64,000 bases of DNA, taken from IMG/VR virus record IMGVR_UViG_3300043409_001462, positions 96,001 through 160,000 of that record. One strand, written 5' to 3'. Shown one piece after another: positions 5,284 to 20,952 of the stretch (within the stretch, counting starts at the first letter, position 1; every line of letters begins with the position of its first letter). Below the pieces are notes generated by a model. The model made no database searches. It had not been told where the DNA came from and saw only the letters and a program-made list of their open reading frames with translations. The translations under genes were made by a program, and so were the position numbers. The stretch comes from a virus.

Positions 5284-6137
5284 TGGAAATTAATGTACCA
5301 ATCGAAATGCTTCGTGAGCGGAAGCTTTTCGTCGCGACTCCAATGTATGGCGGTATGTGCGCTGGAATGTTTGCTAAGTCTACTGCCGACTTGTCTGCTA
5401 TTTGTACGCAGTATGGTATTCCCCTACAGTACTACTATCTCTTCAACGAGTCATTGATCACTCGTGCACGCAACTACTGTGTTGATGAGTTTATGCGTTC
5501 GGATGCTGAACATCTTATGTTTATTGATGCTGATATTGGTTTCAATCCTCAGGATGTTATTGCTCTTATGGCTTTGCAGGCACAGGAGCCAGATAAGTAT
5601 GATATCATTGGTGGACCTTATCCTAAGAAGTGCATCAGCTGGGAAAAGATTAAGCTTGCAGTTGATAAGGGTATGGCTGACGAAGATCCAAACGTACTAG
5701 AAAAGTTCGTTGGTGATTATGTTTTCAATCCTAAGAATAACACTGGATCTATTCCTCTTGGAGAGCCAGTAGAAGTTCTAGAGATTGGTACTGGTTTTAT
5801 GATGATCAGTAAGCAAGCTTTGACTAAGTTTAGAGATAGCTATCCTCAACTTAGCTATAAGCCTGATCACGTTCGTACTGAAGCTTTTGATGGGTCACGT
5901 GAAATCCTCCAGTATTTCCAGGCTGAGATTGATCCTGTTTCTAGACGTTACCTTTCAGAAGACTATTGGTTTTGTCAGAAGGTTCAGGCTATTGGTCTCA
6001 AGACTTGGTTCTGTCCTTGGATGAAGATGCAGCACGTTGGCTCTTACATCTTTGGTGGTTCGTTGTCAGATCTTGCGTCTATTGGGGCGGCAGCAACTGC
6101 TGATCCTAGTGCTCTTGGTGGTAAGAAGAAGAAGTGA
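5283..6137 (+). CDS. GT-A fold glycosyltransferase
   Basis: FVATPMYGG, ESLITRARN, DxD (FIDADIGF), GTGFMMI, LSEDYWFC. Confidence 0.8.
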   Translation: MEINVPIEMLRERKLFVATPMYGGMCAGMFAKSTADLSAICTQYGIPLQYYYLFNESLITRARNYCVDEFMRSDAEHLMFIDADIGFNPQDVIALMALQAQEPDKYDIIGGPYPKKCISWEKIKLAVDKGMADEDPNVLEKFVGDYVFNPKNNTGSIPLGEPVEVLEIGTGFMMISKQALTKFRDSYPQLSYKPDHVRTEAFDGSREILQYFQAEIDPVSRRYLSEDYWFCQKVQAIGLKTWFCPWMKMQHVGSYIFGGSLSDLASIGAAATADPSALGGKKKK

Positions 6138-13304: not shown

Positions 13305-13382
13305 CCTCCGTTGGTGTAGCGGTCTAACATACCCGCCTTTCAAGCGCGGAGATCATCGGTTCAAATCCGATACGGAGGACCA
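13305..13382 (+). tRNA. tRNA-Glu(TTC)
   Basis: Loop CTTTCAA; bulged anticodon stem; CCA. Confidence 0.85.
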
Positions 13383-13804: not shown

Positions 13805-13880
13805 GCCCGTATAGCTCATCTGGTAGAGCACCTGTTTTGTACTCAGGAGGCGGTGGGTTCGAGTCCTGCTGCGGGCACCA
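13805..13880 (+). tRNA. tRNA-Thr(TGT)
   Basis: Loop TTTGTAC; CCA. Confidence 0.88.
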
Positions 13881-14056: not shown

Positions 14057-14662
14057 ATGCAAAATGAAGTGATAAGTCTTTTCCCAACAGCTGTTATGAA
14101 GTCTACATTGGACAGAAAACTTTCAAGAAAAGAAGTTAATTTTGTAAAGAAGAATTTTAAAAATATTAGAAGCAATTTGCAAAACAGTACTAGTTGTGAT
14201 AATTATATTTTAGAAAACCAAGAATTTGTTTCTTTGAAAGAGTTTATTGAAACACAGTTAGATGTATATTACAGAAAAGTATTAAATGTTGATACAAGCT
14301 CAAAGATCTACATTACACAATCATGGTTGAATTATTCTAAGCCAGGTGAATCACATCATCCACATACACATACTAATAGTTTTTTGAGTGGCGTATTCTA
14401 CATTAGCACAAATGAAAATGATAGAATTTTCTTTAGAAAACAAAAAGAATTTATACATATACCACCAACTGTTTGTAATGTTTGGAATTCTGATTTGTGG
14501 GCATTGTCAGCTGTAGAAGGATATCTTTATATTTTTCCTTCAAACCTTGAGCATTATGTGGAAAAAATAACAGGTAGTAAAACAAGAATTAGTTTGAGTT
14601 TCAATTCATTCATATCTGGAAAAATTGGAGCTCCTGATTTCTTATCAGAATTAAAGATATAA
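14057..14662 (+). CDS. 2OG-Fe(II) oxygenase (TIGR02466-like)
   Basis: LFPT start, SWLN, HxH (HHPHTHTNSFLSGVFY), FPSNLEHYV, RISLSFN. Confidence 0.85.
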   Translation: MQNEVISLFPTAVMKSTLDRKLSRKEVNFVKKNFKNIRSNLQNSTSCDNYILENQEFVSLKEFIETQLDVYYRKVLNVDTSSKIYITQSWLNYSKPGESHHPHTHTNSFLSGVFYISTNENDRIFFRKQKEFIHIPPTVCNVWNSDLWALSAVEGYLYIFPSNLEHYVEKITGSKTRISLSFNSFISGKIGAPDFLSELKI

Positions 14663-14741: not shown

Positions 14742-14816
14742 GGTGCCTGAGTAGGACGGTAATGCGCAGGTCTGCAAAACCTTGAGAACCCAGTTCAACT
14801 CTGGGAGGCACCTCCA
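14742..14816 (+). tRNA. tRNA-Cys(GCA)
   Basis: Loop CTGCAAA; U73 CCA. Confidence 0.88.
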
Positions 14817-14994: not shown

Positions 14995-15591
14995 ATGATT
15001 AGCAAACATTTATTGAATGAATTGAATTATATTGTAATTGATAGTGGTGTAAAGATGGAAGGTAATTTGTTTTACTACCATCAGACGACACCATCTGATA
15101 ATCTTTACGAACCTTTCGAAAAGAAACGTCAGAACCTACAGCTATTGGCTAAGAAGTTTGATAACATTATGGAGATCGGTTTCAATGCTGGCCATAGTGC
15201 TGCTTTGATGCTCGAAGCCAATCCTAATCTGTTCTTGGTTAGCATCGATATTGGTGAACATAGCTATGTTTCTTCATGCGGAAAGGCTATTCAATCTGCT
15301 TTCCCTGGAAGGCACCAGCTTATCATCAAGGATTCGAAGCTTATCACTCAGAAAGAAATTAGCTTCGCTCAAGCTGTCATCGTTGATGGTGGTCATGAAT
15401 TTGATGATTGCTCTGCAGACTTGGAGTTGTGTAAAACGTACTGCGCGCCAGGAACAGTTATCGTTATCGACGATATTGATTTGAATGGAGTGCAGCTTGC
15501 GTATAGGCATCACTCTAGAAGTTTGTCAGTATGGAAAGATATTGAAACAATATATAACCAAGCTTTCTTCACATTAAACTCGCCCGAGTAG
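14995..15591 (+). CDS. Class I SAM-dependent methyltransferase (Methyltransf_24-like)
   Basis: MEIGFNAGHS, SIDI, VDGGH, VIDD. Confidence 0.85.
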   Translation: MISKHLLNELNYIVIDSGVKMEGNLFYYHQTTPSDNLYEPFEKKRQNLQLLAKKFDNIMEIGFNAGHSAALMLEANPNLFLVSIDIGEHSYVSSCGKAIQSAFPGRHQLIIKDSKLITQKEISFAQAVIVDGGHEFDDCSADLELCKTYCAPGTVIVIDDIDLNGVQLAYRHHSRSLSVWKDIETIYNQAFFTLNSPE

Positions 15592-15662: not shown

Positions 15663-16263
15663 AGGTTGTGTTCAGCATACAATGGATGAACCAGTCGGTC
15701 GGGTGTTCGAGTCACCCCAGGAGCTCCTTGCTTCTGTAGCTCAGTGGTAGAGCAACTGCCAAAAAGTACAACCTGTTGAAAATAGTGCTTGACTTATCCG
15801 TAGATAAAGCGTATTATATGTGTATTGAGTTTGAGATTGACCGTTCAGCAAACAGCTTTTGATCAAGCTAGTAGCCCCTGGGCTACGTATAGACTGGCTT
15901 TATACCTGGTCTCCAGTGGTTGTTTCTTCGGGCGTCCACTATAAAAAAATGAAATAAGAAGTCAATCTGTTGAGTTTTAGGAAGCATTCGGCAAACAATT
16001 ATTGATTGGTTCAACTCCAATACCAGCGGTTCACGCTAGTACGCCTCGTGTGGGGCAACTGCTTCCTGTTGAGTTCTAGGATTGTTACAGCATAAATGCA
16101 CTTGATTTGTAATCAAACCCGCAAAGGGCAATCCTGTTGAGTTTTAGGGTCAGTTCCGCATCTAAAATGATTGCATATATCAAACCAAGATGACCCTGTT
16201 GAGTTTAGATTCAGTTCCGCAACCAATCAAATCGACTTGAAATCGACCAAAGTGAATCTGTCG
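15663..16263 (+). ncRNA. Array of six Y-RNA-like/tRNA-mimic cassettes upstream of Ro60-like gene
   Basis: Units start at 15663, 15834, 15979, 16078, 16146 and 16207; each is AG-stem + T(T/A)CNGCA + variable cargo + complementary stem-CT + GTTGA(G) (GTCG in unit 6). Confidence 0.85.
15789..15817 (+). promoter_or_regulatory. Sigma70-like promoter inside the RNA array (would drive units 2-6 and the DUF2828 gene)
   Basis: TTGACT-N17-TATTAT. Confidence 0.75.
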
Positions 16264-16280
16264 TAAAATGGAGAAGTGAA

Positions 16281-17711
16281 ATGAATACCTTTGTAAATGC
16301 CGTTGTTAATCAGGAAGCTCGTACCGAAAATGGTATGAAGGCTCGCCAGTCTACTGCTAATGCATTGACTGATCTGTTCTTCAAGATCGGTGCTATGCGT
16401 GGTCAGAATGTAATTCCTGCTTGGACTGCTGCTCGTGCTCATGATACTTTGCTTGCATCTCGTATCGCTCTTTGGGCACGTGATGTTCGTGGTGGTGCTG
16501 GTGAACGTAAAATCTTCCGTGACATTTTAGTTGATCTTGCTTCAGCTGATCCTCATCGTGGTGTGGCTCTTGGTCGTAAGATTCCAGAGCTTGGTCGTTG
16601 GGATGACTTCCTTGTGTTCGTTGGTACCCCTCTTGAGGAGTATGCGTTCGAAACTATCCGCGAAGCTCTCGAAGCTGGTAATGGTCTCTGTGCAAAGTGG
16701 ATGCCTCGTCAAGGTGAAACAGCTGTAAAGCTTCGTAAGTACCTTGGTTGGACTCCTAAGTTCTACCGAAAGCGTCTGGTTGAATTGACCAAGGTTGTCG
16801 AAACTCAGATGTGCGCTAAGGACTGGGATAACATCAACTTCAACCATGTTCCTTCGGTTGCTTCTTCTCGTTACAAGAAGGCATTCGCTCGTCATACTGA
16901 CAAGTACAAGGAATGGACTGCGGCTCTTGTTTCTACTGATCCAGAGGTGGCTAAGTCTGTTAAGGTCAATGCTGGTGCGGTTTATCCTTACGATGTGTTG
17001 AAGGGTGTGATTAATCATTATGGGCGTTATGATCAATCTAACTTGAATCATATCCTTGCTCAGTGGGAAGCTTTGCCTAACTTCGTTGGTAATGCTAACA
17101 TTCTTCCGCTTGTTGACGTTTCTGGTTCAATGACTTCGAAGGCTGGTGGTTATCAGTCAAAGTCAGAAGTAACCTGCCTTGATGTTGCAGTTTCTCTTGG
17201 TCTGTATCTCGCAGACAAAAACAAGGGTAAGTTCAAGGATACTTTCTTGACCTTCTCTAGCGATCCTCAGCTGCTTCATCTTCGCGGTAACATCCTCGAT
17301 AAGGTAAAGCAGATGGTATCTTCAAAGTGGGAAATGAACACCAATTTGCATCGTGCGTTGGATAAGATCCTTCGCACCGCGATTGAAGGTAACGTTCCTC
17401 AGTCAGAAATGCCAGGTGCATTGTTGATCCTTTCTGATATGCAGTTTGATTCTTGCACTCGTCACGATGACTCTGCTATGGAAATGATTAAGCGTAAGTA
17501 TGTTGATGCTGGTTACAATGTACCTAACATTGTGTTCTGGAATCTCAATGCTCACGACAATGTTCCTGTCAAGTATGACACTCGTGGTGCTGCTCTTGTT
17601 TCTGGTTTCTCACCTTCTATCGTTAAGGCTGTTCTGCAGGCTGAGATGGATAACTTTACGCCAGAAGCTATCATGATGCAAACCATTATGAACCCACGAT
17701 ATGACTACTAA
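16281..17711 (+). CDS. DUF2828-family helical + vWA protein (Ro60/TROVE-like RNA-binding protein)
   Basis: RTENG, RDVRGGAGER, GRWDD, AKWMPR, VPSVAS, MIDAS DVSGSM, NTNL, ILSDMQFD, FWNL, VSGFSP. Confidence 0.85.
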   Translation: MNTFVNAVVNQEARTENGMKARQSTANALTDLFFKIGAMRGQNVIPAWTAARAHDTLLASRIALWARDVRGGAGERKIFRDILVDLASADPHRGVALGRKIPELGRWDDFLVFVGTPLEEYAFETIREALEAGNGLCAKWMPRQGETAVKLRKYLGWTPKFYRKRLVELTKVVETQMCAKDWDNINFNHVPSVASSRYKKAFARHTDKYKEWTAALVSTDPEVAKSVKVNAGAVYPYDVLKGVINHYGRYDQSNLNHILAQWEALPNFVGNANILPLVDVSGSMTSKAGGYQSKSEVTCLDVAVSLGLYLADKNKGKFKDTFLTFSSDPQLLHLRGNILDKVKQMVSSKWEMNTNLHRALDKILRTAIEGNVPQSEMPGALLILSDMQFDSCTRHDDSAMEMIKRKYVDAGYNVPNIVFWNLNAHDNVPVKYDTRGAALVSGFSPSIVKAVLQAEMDNFTPEAIMMQTIMNPRYDY

Positions 17712-17780: not shown

Positions 17781-17856
17781 GCTGCAATAGCTCAGTTGGT
17801 AGAGCACTTGATTAGTAATCAAGATGTCGCGAGTTCGATCCTTGCTTGCAGCACCA
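17781..17856 (+). tRNA. tRNA-Thr(AGT)
   Basis: Perfect stem CTTGA/TCAAG, loop TTAGTAA; CCA. Confidence 0.88.
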
Positions 17857-18230: not shown

Positions 18231-18355
18231 TCTCAAAATGGAGATATTATGTACAAAATATACACGCTAGTGATTGATAACATTACCAAATTAGTTTGGT
18301 TAGCATTAATGACCTATTGGTTATCCGATGGTGTCAAGATAACGTCGCTATTCAA

Positions 18356-19003
18356 ATGAAGAAATTAGCTCTCTTCAATCATCACCCTGAATGTTCTAAT
18401 CAGTGTTGTATGGGTATGATGAGAGCTTTAGAACCACATTATAAAGTCAAGTGGTTTGATGTTCGTTCCAATCTAGACGAGGTGCTTGATAATGTGGATG
18501 GGTTACTTTTTCCTGGTGGCATTGGCGATAGTGATTCCTATTTCGATTTCTTTACACGTTCTAAAGCTAACAAAATCGCATCGTTTATTGCTAGAGGCGG
18601 TCGGTATATCGGCATTTGTATGGGTGCTTATTGGGCTGGGTCTAGATATTTTGACATTCTTGACAATGTAGATGCGGTTCAGTATATTAAAAGACCAACA
18701 GCTGAGATACGCCGAAGCTATGGCACGGTTGCTGATATCGAATGGCTTGGTCAAAAAGAAAAGATGTTCTTCTATGATGGCTGTACCTTTGTTGGACCAG
18801 GTCGCTATGATACTATTGCCAAGTATGCCAACGATGAACCAATGGCGATCATTCAAGGCAACATAGGTATTATTGGTTGCCACCCTGAGAGCGAAGAGTT
18901 TTGGTTCGAAGATCCTTATCAATATATCAACAAACACTGGCATAAAGGTAAGCATCATCAGTTACTACTAGAATTCGTAAATAAGTTATGGAGAGTTGGC
19001 TGA
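18356..19003 (+). CDS. BPL_N / class I glutamine amidotransferase-like protein
   Basis: LFPGGIG, GGRYIGICMGAYWA nucleophile elbow, GCHPE. Confidence 0.8.
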   Translation: MKKLALFNHHPECSNQCCMGMMRALEPHYKVKWFDVRSNLDEVLDNVDGLLFPGGIGDSDSYFDFFTRSKANKIASFIARGGRYIGICMGAYWAGSRYFDILDNVDAVQYIKRPTAEIRRSYGTVADIEWLGQKEKMFFYDGCTFVGPGRYDTIAKYANDEPMAIIQGNIGIIGCHPESEEFWFEDPYQYINKHWHKGKHHQLLLEFVNKLWRVG

Positions 19004-19221: not shown

Positions 19222-20952
19222 ATGAAAAAAATATTAGCGTTTATTGCTGCACTTTTCTGCGTAACTTCAGTATATGCACAAACTTTACCATCAGGTTCAA
19301 TTGGTACAGTAACAAACAATACACCTAACACCTGGCAAACATTCACATACACATTCACACCATCAACAACTGGTGCTAACTTTCTCGGCTTTGCATTTCG
19401 TCAGGATCCAGCTTTCTGGACTTTCGATAATGTAAAGCTTACAGCTGCTGGTTCAACAACTAATCTTTTGACTAATGGTGCGTTTGACAATGGTGGTTCA
19501 TTTAGTGTAACAACCAGCAATGGTCCATCATCCATTCAAGCCCCAACTAACTGGGGTGTTTGGTATCAGAATGGAACATATCCAGCCGCTGCTGGTCAGT
19601 GGCAAAGCTCAGGTGTTTGGTACGATGGTGCTGTTGGTACATTCGATGGTATCTATCAGGGCATAGTCCTACAAGCAGGAACAACTTATACCATAGCCTT
19701 TGATGTCAGTGGAAACAATACTGCTAACACTAGCTCTATTCAGCTTGGTGCATATGGTGGCGCTTGTGCTGATGTATCGGTTTCACCCGATCAATGTACT
19801 ATTCCATCGTCTGTTGGCTTCACGACATTAGCAACTCCAGCTCAAGGCGCTTCTGCTGGTGGACCACCAACTCCTCCACCTGTTACTCTTGTCAGCACTA
19901 CAAACGCTCCATCAACTTCTGTTGCAACAACGGTAAATGGTACAGCTGTAACAGTTAACAATGTAGCTACTGGTGGTACAAATAATGGTAGATGGATTGC
20001 TGTAACAAGAACAACAACACCTGTTACTACAAGACCATTTACTGTCACAACTGTGACAACTCCACACGCTACTGAAACTTATAGCGATGGAACAACTGTT
20101 ACAACAAATGGTACTGCTGTAACAACTACTCAAACTGGTGCTACTGTTACTGTAGGTCAATCAACAGCTCAAACTGCTTCTGCTTCTGCTATTGCTCTCA
20201 AAGATGCAATGGCTATTAGTAGATTCAATCCATTTATTGTAGATGCTCTTGCAACCAAAGATGGTGCATGGGCAACTCCTTCTATGGGATATGCTAAGAC
20301 TGGTGGTTCATTTAGAACAAGTGGTCTTGGACTTGGCGCTCAGACAACTGTAGAAGAGAATACTTTTGGTATCGCTGGTACATTTGGTAAAACAAACAGT
20401 AGTGGTTATCTAAACTCTCAATCTCAAGCTGATACATATGGTGCAACTGCATATGTTTTAAGCAGACAGAGTGATATTTGGGTAAAAGGATCTGTTGGGT
20501 TCAATGTGTCAGAATATAACACAACAACATCACTTCCAGTGTTTGCTCTTATCAATCAGAGCAATGTAAGAGCTAAGAATTATTATGCTGATGTGACATT
20601 CTACTCTGCGCAGGAGTATTTTGGCTTCAGACCGTTGGTTGGCGTTGTTGTAACTAACTCAACAATATCATCAAAGGCTCAATCAGGTTCGCCTCTGCTT
20701 TCAACATTACCGACTGATGATAGAGTTATCGAAGCTCGACCATATGCTGGTATCAGATTTGATATTGACCAGACATTTGGAATTGAAACAAGAGTAACAC
20801 AATCAAAAGACTTCAAGACAGTTGGACAGGCTCGTTTGACTGCTAATCATGAAGTGTTCAAGGATGTGTTCTTCAACGTTCAAGCTGGGTTTGAAAAAGG
20901 TTCTGGTTACACAGCAGCTGTAGGTATGATTGGTTTGAAAATCAACTTCTAA
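19222..20952 (+). CDS. Autotransporter-like outer-membrane protein
   Basis: Sec signal peptide, beta-sandwich-like passenger, Pro/Thr-rich linker, amphipathic beta-strands ending GLKINF. Confidence 0.7.
   Translation: MKKILAFIAALFCVTSVYAQTLPSGSIGTVTNNTPNTWQTFTYTFTPSTTGANFLGFAFRQDPAFWTFDNVKLTAAGSTTNLLTNGAFDNGGSFSVTTSNGPSSIQAPTNWGVWYQNGTYPAAAGQWQSSGVWYDGAVGTFDGIYQGIVLQAGTTYTIAFDVSGNNTANTSSIQLGAYGGACADVSVSPDQCTIPSSVGFTTLATPAQGASAGGPPTPPPVTLVSTTNAPSTSVATTVNGTAVTVNNVATGGTNNGRWIAVTRTTTPVTTRPFTVTTVTTPHATETYSDGTTVTTNGTAVTTTQTGATVTVGQSTAQTASASAIALKDAMAISRFNPFIVDALATKDGAWATPSMGYAKTGGSFRTSGLGLGAQTTVEENTFGIAGTFGKTNSSGYLNSQSQADTYGATAYVLSRQSDIWVKGSVGFNVSEYNTTTSLPVFALINQSNVRAKNYYADVTFYSAQEYFGFRPLVGVVVTNSTISSKAQSGSPLLSTLPTDDRVIEARPYAGIRFDIDQTFGIETRVTQSKDFKTVGQARLTANHEVFKDVFFNVQAGFEKGSGYTAAVGMIGLKINF

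What the first reader, a model, noticed from the sequence alone, without database searches (positions are those of the whole stretch)
16098..16246. Isolated anticodon stem-loops displayed as cargo in units 4-6
Unit 4 contains GCAC-TTGA-TTTGTAA-TCAA, an anticodon arm of tRNA-Thr(UGU) type. It differs by one base from the same stretch of the phage tRNA-Thr(AGT) at 17781 (GCACTTGATTAGTAATCAA). Unit 6 contains TCGA-CTTGAAA-TCGA, whose 7-nt loop is identical to the phage tRNA-Ser(UGA) loop. Unit 5 has TGAT-TGCATAT-ATCA, a 7-nt loop that could be read as CAU- or GCA-like (ambiguous). Inference: the scaffold captures tRNA fragments like an interchangeable payload. Anticodon loops are the substrates of PrrC/VapC/colicin-type tRNases, so these could be decoys or sensors.
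Basis: partly seen in the sequence, partly recalled or inferred. Interest (0 to 1): 0.82.

Follow-up and report, generated by a model that had tools for sequence, protein, structure and literature searches.

The report
Phage small RNAs displaying tRNA anticodons
This phage carries six small RNA genes with one shared "handle" in front of a gene for a Ro60-shaped protein; three of them hold up a bare copy of a tRNA anticodon arm, most likely as bait for host proteins that attack or read tRNAs, and I found no published description of such RNAs.

Summary
Confirmed and more than chance. Units 4-6 are the last three of six cassettes (7-bp closing stem plus C[A/C]GCA motif) before a DUF2828 gene whose model folds like Ro60, in a 173-kb T4-like phage. 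Of 218 distinct short homologous cargos, 93 carry a stem with a Y-U-NNN-R loop (4 expected by shuffling), across about 20 anticodons; four more occur in distant cultured phages. Unit 4 is a Thr(UGU) arm plus a covarying 2-3 bp outer helix; unit 6 has the cellular Ser(UGA) loop; unit 5 is best read as CAU with non-canonical G33. Recent capture from phage tRNAs is not supported: unit 4 copies the cellular Thr(UGU) arm. Best guess (0.45): protein-bound baits for anticodon nucleases; sensor/gate and enzyme-tether roles remain open. A 37%-identical homolog, Bas63 gp130, counters Ppl defence, but does so without these RNAs. Binding, expression and function are untested. It works like Y RNA but lacks the YrlA Ro-binding motif. 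The scan noted this family before in other genomes; two library searches for it found no paper.

The parts
15663..15774 (+). Unit 1: scaffold with YrlA-like permuted tRNA elbow (T arm, closed acceptor stem, D arm)
   Evidence: Rfam YrlA 39.1 bits, E 6e-7, below gathering score 69; fold z -2.5
15789..15817 (+). Sigma70-like promoter (10 of 12 matches) that could drive units 2-6 and the gene
   Evidence: 4 sites found, 4.2 expected, so weak alone; the same hexamers seen at this place in L002 and L003
15834..15968 (+). Unit 2: scaffold with three hairpins and a probable pseudoknot (about 15915-15960) of a widespread TTCG-loop plus A-rich-tail family
   Evidence: 69 of 527 distinct units
15979..16067 (+). 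Unit 3: scaffold with T arm and two short hairpins (degenerate elbow mimic)
16078..16135 (+). Unit 4: scaffold carrying a Thr(UGU) anticodon arm
16097..16123 (+). Unit 4 cargo: outer helix 16097-16099/16121-16123 (like the lower D stem), stem 16102-16105/16113-16116, loop 16106-16112; a competing hairpin at 16118-16128 is possible in this clade
   Evidence: 19-mer identical to tRNA-Thr(UGU) of 2 of 401 alphaproteobacterial genomes
16146..16197 (+). Unit 5: scaffold with 4-bp stem and 7-nt loop 16172-16178, CAU at 34-36, A37, non-canonical G33
   Evidence: CAT begins at position 34 in 22 of 40 framed cases; those loops have G33 in 14, U33 in 7, A37 in 20
16207..16259 (+). Unit 6: scaffold with Ser(UGA) loop 16236-16242; ends 21 nt before the start codon
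   Evidence: the last unit ends 10-29 nt before the start in 176 of 236 loci
16270..16274 (+). Shine-Dalgarno-like site of the DUF2828 gene
   Evidence: sequence
16281..17711 (+). 476-aa DUF2828/DUF7788 protein, predicted Ro60-like helical ring plus vWA domain with DVSGS MIDAS motif
   Evidence: Pfam; AF2 pLDDT 72, pTM 0.62; top 13 Foldseek hits are all Ro60, best TM 0.54; 37% identical to Bas63 gp130
13805..13880 (+). Phage tRNA-Thr(UGU) that departs from cellular arms (C38, U31-U39 mismatch); comparison for unit 4
17781..17856 (+). Phage tRNA-Thr(AGU) whose anticodon arm is one base from unit 4

Best explanation
Each unit is a small RNA, probably cut from a leader transcript, whose closing stem and C[A/C]GCA motif bind the neighbouring Ro60-like ring protein (inferred). 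The cargo presents a host-like anticodon arm (shown as a selected structure), so the particle attracts host proteins that grip anticodon arms, most likely anti-phage or toxin-antitoxin tRNases, and holds them on the ring away from working tRNAs (inferred). Arrays sample several anticodons to cover several nucleases, while the phage's own tRNAs supply translation.
For: Loop bias and about 20 anticodons. In a family chosen by its flanks only, U33, A37, A38 and U39 are present in 33 of 33 while 34-35 vary. No acceptor end, so no role in decoding. Unit 4's 13-nt core matches 61 of 98 alphaproteobacterial tRNA-Thr(UGU) rows (my count by eye), all with A38, while the phage's own Thr(UGU) has C38; an alpha-type tmRNA suggests such a host. 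Unit 4 holds U36-A-A-U-C-A41, the AriB site of E. coli tRNA-Thr(UGU) (PMC12409363); Thr(UGU) is also the P2-OLD target (PMC12445682), Ser(UGA) a VapC28/30 target (PMC5175351), Lys(UUU) and Met(CAU) Schlafen targets (PMC13056530). Bas63 gp130 counters Ppl (bioRxiv 2024.10.10.617714) and Bas63 has four scaffold units. Y RNAs tether Ro60 to partners (PMC4201824).
Against: gp130 rescued T7 against Ppl without Bas63 RNAs, and Ppl's target is unknown. Extra cleavable tRNA-Thr gave little protection from P2-OLD. AriB also needs D-loop U16 and OLD a CNG stem motif; unit 4 has neither. Most phage tRNA loops in these loci are canonical (50 of 53 Thr(UGU)), so the 'host-like bait, altered phage tRNA' contrast rests largely on this genome. 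Unit 6 has A31-U39 where 64 of 65 cellular Ser(UGA) rows have U31-A39. Overlap with known targets is weak evidence because many tRNAs are targets. No binding or expression data.
Confidence: 0.45

Rival explanations
1. Sensor or gate: the RNA keeps the ring protein (or its mRNA) off; a cut in the displayed loop leaves two pieces held by 7-8 bp plus 4 bp, which part and free the active protein or change its expression. Unit 6 beside the ribosome-binding site could double as an operator.
For: RNA-free gp130 is active. Bound Y RNA inhibits one Rsr function in Deinococcus (PMC4201824). The last unit ends 10-29 nt before the start codon in 176 of 236 loci and is short in 153 of these.
Against: Units often lie 1-3 kb from the gene, downstream of it, or among tRNAs, which a cis switch does not need. 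No conserved alternative fold was seen; the centroid for unit 6 plus SD is unpaired.
Confidence: 0.22
2. Tether or sponge for housekeeping tRNA enzymes (t6A, pseudouridine or other modification enzymes, synthetases), used to steer the tRNA pool during infection.
For: The unit-4 family has U36-A37-A38 in 32 of 33 members and switches only among anticodons ending in U (Thr, Lys, Arg, Ile, Ser), which is the t6A class (own knowledge). The covarying outer helix mimics the lower D stem. A31-U39 in 74 of 94 mimics whatever the anticodon. YrlA is a substrate of TruB and DusA.
Against: Arrays vary quickly between close relatives, which fits conflict better than housekeeping. The only phenotype known for a homolog is anti-defence.
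Confidence: 0.2
3. tRNA-repair platform: Ro60-like protein and RNAs recruit ligases to broken tRNAs, as proposed for rsr-yrl-rtcB operons.
For: A tRNA-splicing ligase lies near the gene in Listeria phage LMTA-57 and an RNA ligase in Serratia phage BF; review statement in PMC7824862.
Against: No RtcB, Rnl2-type ligase or CCA enzyme found in this genome (the Rnl1 search had no working control). Host ligases are not excluded.
Confidence: 0.07
4. Neutral debris: decayed tRNA pieces trapped in a repeat, or DNA-level repeats without RNA function.
For: AT-rich stems; a series of truncated tRNA forms exists among cargos; few ancestors may be involved.
Against: Closing stems differ yet always pair; one strand only; compensatory changes in cargo stems and outer helix; the same design in Vibrio, Listeria and Synechococcus phages.
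Confidence: 0.06

Closest known systems
Bacterial and phage Ro60 (Rsr) with YrlA/YrlB Y RNAs (Chen et al. 2014, PMC4201824; Rfam RF02553)
   Same: Small RNAs beside a Ro60-fold gene on the same strand, closed by a 5'-3' stem with a conserved motif, carrying tRNA-like modules; unit 1 has the YrlA T-acceptor-D order.
   Different: The motif is C[A/C]GCA, not GNCGAA (0 of 527 units); the protein is DUF2828/DUF7788, with no sequence match to solved Ro60; YrlA shows the elbow and lacks an anticodon arm, whereas units 4-6 show only the anticodon arm; arrays reach 6-8 units.
Thermus phage phiLo Ro60 with Yrl1/Yrl2 (PMC12135203)
   Same: Phage Ro60 with upstream RNAs; best structural match (9kop, TM 0.54).
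   Different: 16% identity; its RNAs carry CGAA; no anticodon cargo in the passages read; proposed to recruit PNPase.
Bas63 gp130, counter of Ppl (bioRxiv 10.1101/2024.10.10.617714)
   Same: Same protein family (37% over 477 aa); next to a tRNA cluster with four scaffold units.
   Different: The authors guessed some tRNA genes are Y RNAs and did not report these units in the passages read; the protein alone was enough; Bas63 short cargos are not canonical anticodon loops.
Phage tRNAs that resist anticodon nucleases (T5 vs PARIS, PMC12409363; Thr tRNAs vs P2-OLD, PMC12445682)
   Same: Same conflict and overlapping tRNA types (Thr UGU, Lys UUU, Asn GUU).
   Different: Those are full tRNAs that replace cut ones; these cannot be charged and keep the host-like loop.
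Dictyostelid Class I RNAs (PMC7919456)
   Same: About 60 nt, short 5'-3' stem of variable sequence, adjacent motif, variable interior; start AAG and end CUGU versus AG start and CTGT end in 419 of 527 units.
   Different: No Rfam match here; the conserved T at motif position 3 is present in only 173 of 527 units; no Ro60 link in that paper; homology not shown.
E. coli thrS operator (own knowledge)
   Same: An isolated Thr anticodon-arm mimic in a leader.
   Different: It regulates the synthetase gene in cis; here the gene is a ring protein and the anticodon varies.

Membership tests
Ro60/Y RNA system | Ring of helical repeats closed by a vWA domain with MIDAS | tested here: met
   Model pLDDT 72; top 13 Foldseek hits are Ro60, E down to 8e-8, TM 0.35-0.54; DVSGS invariant
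Ro60/Y RNA system | TROVE domain or sequence similarity to Ro60 | tested here: not met
   Pfam gives DUF2828 and DUF7788 only; no Ro60 by phmmer against PDB
Ro60/Y RNA system | RNA genes within a few kb of the protein gene, same strand | tested here: met
   760 units upstream against 2 on the opposite strand; 22 against 0 in cultured phages
Ro60/Y RNA system | RNA is expressed and binds the protein | not testable with these tools
YrlA (RF02553) | GNCGAA Ro-binding motif near the 5' end | tested here: not met
   0 of 527 distinct units
YrlA (RF02553) | T arm, closed acceptor stem, D arm in permuted order | tested here: inconclusive
   Met by unit 1 (39.1 bits, below gathering 69) and about 34 homologous units; not met by units 4-6; no locus reached gathering
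tRNA anticodon stem-loop | 7-nt loop with Y32, U33, purine 37 on a 4-5 bp stem | tested here: met
   Units 4 and 6 (4-bp stems) and 93 of 218 short cargos
tRNA anticodon stem-loop | U33 in unit 5 | tested here: not met
   G33; CAU and A37 are in register and relatives with U33 exist
Functional tRNA | Acceptor stem with free 3' end, D and T arms | tested here: not met
   ARAGORN and Rfam call nothing in 15960-16290
Anticodon-nuclease substrate or inhibitor | Carries the full determinants and is cut or bound | tested here: inconclusive
   Unit 4 has the AriB cleavage-site sequence but no D loop and no OLD CNG motif; cutting or binding not testable here
preQ1-I riboswitch (unit 2) | Ligand-pairing C just before the 3' strand of P1 (own knowledge) | tested here: not met
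   T or A at that place in the window and ten close homologs; Rfam 18.1 bits against gathering 39
Dictyostelid Class I RNA | Terminal stem plus 11-nt motif with T3, C6, C9, A10, A11; dictyostelid host | tested here: inconclusive
   Ends agree; A11 in 426 and T3 in 173 of 527 (C6, C9, A10 were imposed by my search); no Rfam hit

The most novel reading that the evidence does not exclude
Phages carry a reprogrammable RNA counter-defence: one Ro60-like ring loaded with a library of anticodon-arm baits, retargeted by point changes in the anticodon, that traps or senses specific host tRNA nucleases. The anticodons shown would then predict which tRNAs undiscovered defence nucleases cut.
Probability: 0.4. 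Interest if true: 0.9.

Novelty: new variant of a known kind. Interest (0 to 1): 0.72.

Why it matters
tRNA cleavage is a major branch of anti-phage defence, and the counters I found described in these papers are resistant tRNAs and repair enzymes. A bait or sensor RNA family with swappable anticodons would be a further route, would give a function to DUF2828 proteins (711 phage records match), and would extend Y RNA biology from elbow mimics to anticodon mimics. It is testable now: cultured Vibrio phage BUCT194 carries a unit-4-family element and an Arg(UCU) element, and Bas63 has a known phenotype.

Tried and rejected
Recent capture from the phage's own tRNAs: rejected. Unit 5 as a Cys(GCA) loop: disfavoured, CAU sits in register. 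Unit 2 as a preQ1-I aptamer linked to TGT or 7-deazaguanine metabolism: defining C absent, no TGT or QueC found in the genome. Phage-encoded repair partner: RtcB, Rnl2-type ligase and CCA enzyme not found; Rnl1 search inconclusive. Sequence search of PDB: nothing relevant. Rfam on units 3-6: nothing to E 10. Clustering at 75% identity loses significance. The covariation scores are partly circular for the inner stem, since pairing was a selection rule; the outer pair was not forced. The '31-39 pair' comparison is circular and was not used. No units within 2 kb of the gene in 7 of the 12 cultured phages fetched last, nor in Campylobacter F357 at the stricter threshold. Literature searches found no description of this scaffold or of anticodon cargos; the library omits most subscription papers.

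Full report
Setting. The window lies in a 173-kb T4-like phage record (gp23, E 1e-148) inside a cluster of 25-26 tRNA genes. A permuted alpha-type tmRNA elsewhere in the genome (124.7 bits) suggests an alphaproteobacterial host; this is inference.

Anatomy. Six units lie at 15663-16259, each made of a 7-bp closing stem, a short linker, C[A/C/G]GCA, a variable cargo, and the complementary strand followed by GT. These six are the only clear units in the genome. They lead into ORF 16281-17711, DUF2828 plus DUF7788. Its model (pLDDT 72) matches only Ro60 structures in the top 13 Foldseek hits, best the Thermus phage Ro60 (TM 0.54), though it has no sequence match to them. Unit 1 aligns to YrlA below the curated cut-off. 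In 273 homologous loci the same finder gave 760 units (527 distinct) against 1 in shuffled DNA. The loci are redundant and related.

The three hairpins are as described. Among 218 distinct short cargos, 7-nt loops are three to five times as common as any other size; 60% fit Y32-U33-R37 against 7-8% in two controls; 93 cargos hold such a hairpin against 4.2 in shuffles; 24 of 70 distinct loops fit against 6.1 by permutation. About 20 anticodons occur, led by UGU (24) and UGA (21). After clustering by flanks the excess survives to 80% identity and is lost at 75%, where the mimic families merge, so the number of independent origins may be small. Distant cultured phages add separate cases: Ser(UGA) in Listeria phage LMTA-57, Lys(UUU) in Synechococcus phage BUCT-ZZ01, Ser(GCU) and Arg(UCU) in Vibrio phage BUCT194; 4 of 15 short cargos against 0.36 expected.

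Unit 4 belongs to a family that can be picked by its flanks alone. In 33 members U33, A37, A38 and U39 never change, U36 is kept in 32, and positions 34-35 vary. A second short helix outside the arm covaries: GC with GC 23 times, AC with GT 8, GG with CC once, and one wobble case. By position it reproduces the lower D stem stacked on the anticodon arm (inference). In this clade a small competing hairpin overlaps its 3' strand. Unit 5 lacks U33, but among framed hairpins CAT starts at position 34 in 22 of 40 cases, with A37 in 20 and both G33 and U33 versions, so CAU with G33 is the better reading. It is the weakest of the three. Unit 6 has the loop found in all 65 alphaproteobacterial Ser(UGA) rows counted, but A31-U39 where 64 have U31-A39; A31-U39 is general among mimics (74 of 94).

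Origin. Recent capture from phage tRNAs is not supported. Mimic stems are AT-rich (24% vs 60% GC), mimics are not closer to tRNAs of their own locus, and unit 4 is nearly unchanged where the neighbouring Thr(AGU) stem is different. Its 13-nt core is instead the commonest cellular Thr(UGU) arm in the alphaproteobacterial sample (61 of 98 rows by my count; also common in the second class sampled), and the 19-mer is exact in 2 of 401 genomes. Ancient derivation from tRNA genes remains likely, since cargos include tRNAs lacking only the acceptor stem, T-arm units and elbow mimics. Close relatives keep stem and cargo together and gain, lose or reorder whole units; across the family one cargo sits in many stems.

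Mechanism. Shown: the scaffold is conserved as structure, travels with the gene, and displays selected anticodon arms that cannot be charged. Inferred: expression, processing, binding to the ring, and the partner. I favour bait for tRNA nucleases (0.45). The most common loops match known targets: Thr(UGU) for AriB and P2-OLD, Ser(UGA) for VapC28/30, Lys(UUU) and Met(CAU) for a Schlafen. Unit 4 carries the AriB site sequence, and the homolog Bas63 gp130 (37%) counters Ppl. Against this: gp130 worked without its RNAs, surplus cleavable tRNA did not protect against OLD, unit 4 lacks AriB's D-loop contact and OLD's CNG motif, and most phage tRNA loops in these loci are unaltered. A free decoy is therefore doubtful; a trap on the ring, or a sensor whose cleavage frees the protein (0.22), fits better. 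A tether for modification enzymes or synthetases (0.2) is favoured by the family's confinement to U36-A37-A38 loops. A repair platform (0.07) lacks phage ligases here. Neutral debris is unlikely (0.06).

Comparison. It works like a Ro60/Y RNA system (PMC4201824; PMC12135203) but is not filed as YrlA: the GNCGAA motif is absent from all 527 units and no locus reaches the Rfam cut-off. YrlA shows the elbow; units 4-6 show the part YrlA lacks. The resemblance of the handle to dictyostelid Class I RNAs, a lead from earlier scan notes, holds for the ends and layout but only partly for the motif.

Novelty. The protein family is already annotated as Ro-like in some phage records, and phage Y RNAs are known. 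I found no paper on this scaffold or on anticodon-arm cargo in the held library. Earlier scan notes report the family in other genomes; they are unchecked and were not used as support. Verdict: real feature, new variant of a known kind, function unproven. Interest 0.72.

Noticed in passing
window 15915-15960 (unit 2); e.g. L001:3095-3156, L061:3852-3913: Probable pseudoknot: 5-bp stem, loop with TTCG and an A-rich tail; 69 of 527 distinct units. Weak preQ1-I and SAM-II Rfam hits, but the preQ1-pairing C is missing; some versions look like T arms, so it may be a minimal T-loop module.
   Followed up: partly
window 17781-17856: tRNA-Thr with AGU anticodon, rare in bacteria (own knowledge); seen in 18 loci including the window, often near this gene; its arm looks derived from Thr(UGU).
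   Followed up: partly
window 13305-13382: 78-nt tRNA with UCA anticodon (called SeC by ARAGORN but of ordinary length): possible opal suppressor. Homologous loci hold 8 UCA and 15 CUA tRNAs.
   Followed up: no
L280:231-580 (G000 about 5630-5980, outside the window): Phage-encoded permuted alpha-type tmRNA followed by tRNA-Arg(UCU); another permuted tmRNA in L080.
   Followed up: partly
window 14742-14813: tRNA-Cys-like gene found by Rfam but missed by ARAGORN, without a clear CCA end.
   Followed up: no
L014, L015, L016, L019, L064, L080 (long cargos): Units holding D, anticodon and T arms without an acceptor stem; among long cargos the AAU anticodon is the commonest (13 of 53), an anticodon rare in cellular bacterial tRNAs (own knowledge).
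   Followed up: no
L279 (Bas63 record 82072-82906): Four unannotated scaffold units between tRNA genes, one YrlA-like and overlapping annotated ORF bas63_0137 on the other strand.
   Followed up: partly
L277:4461-4708 (mycobacteriophage Wyatt2): Three units downstream of the 'Ro-like' gene; loops with A32 or G33 variants recur here and in other loci.
   Followed up: partly
L010, L017, L194, L195 (units of 150-170 nt): A conserved long, structured cargo family with no tRNA likeness; 138 of 527 units are unclassified long cargos.
   Followed up: no
window 14057-14662, 14995-15591, 18296-19003: 2OG-Fe(II) oxygenase, Methyltransf_24 and BPL_N/GATase-like genes set among the tRNA genes.
   Followed up: no
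window 19222-20952: 576-aa secreted-looking protein with Thr-rich repeats and a beta-barrel-like C-terminus (by eye).
   Followed up: no
L276 (Campylobacter phage F357): These Campylobacter phages have two matches to the protein per genome and scaffold-like units before the gene with ends that deviate from the consensus.
   Followed up: no
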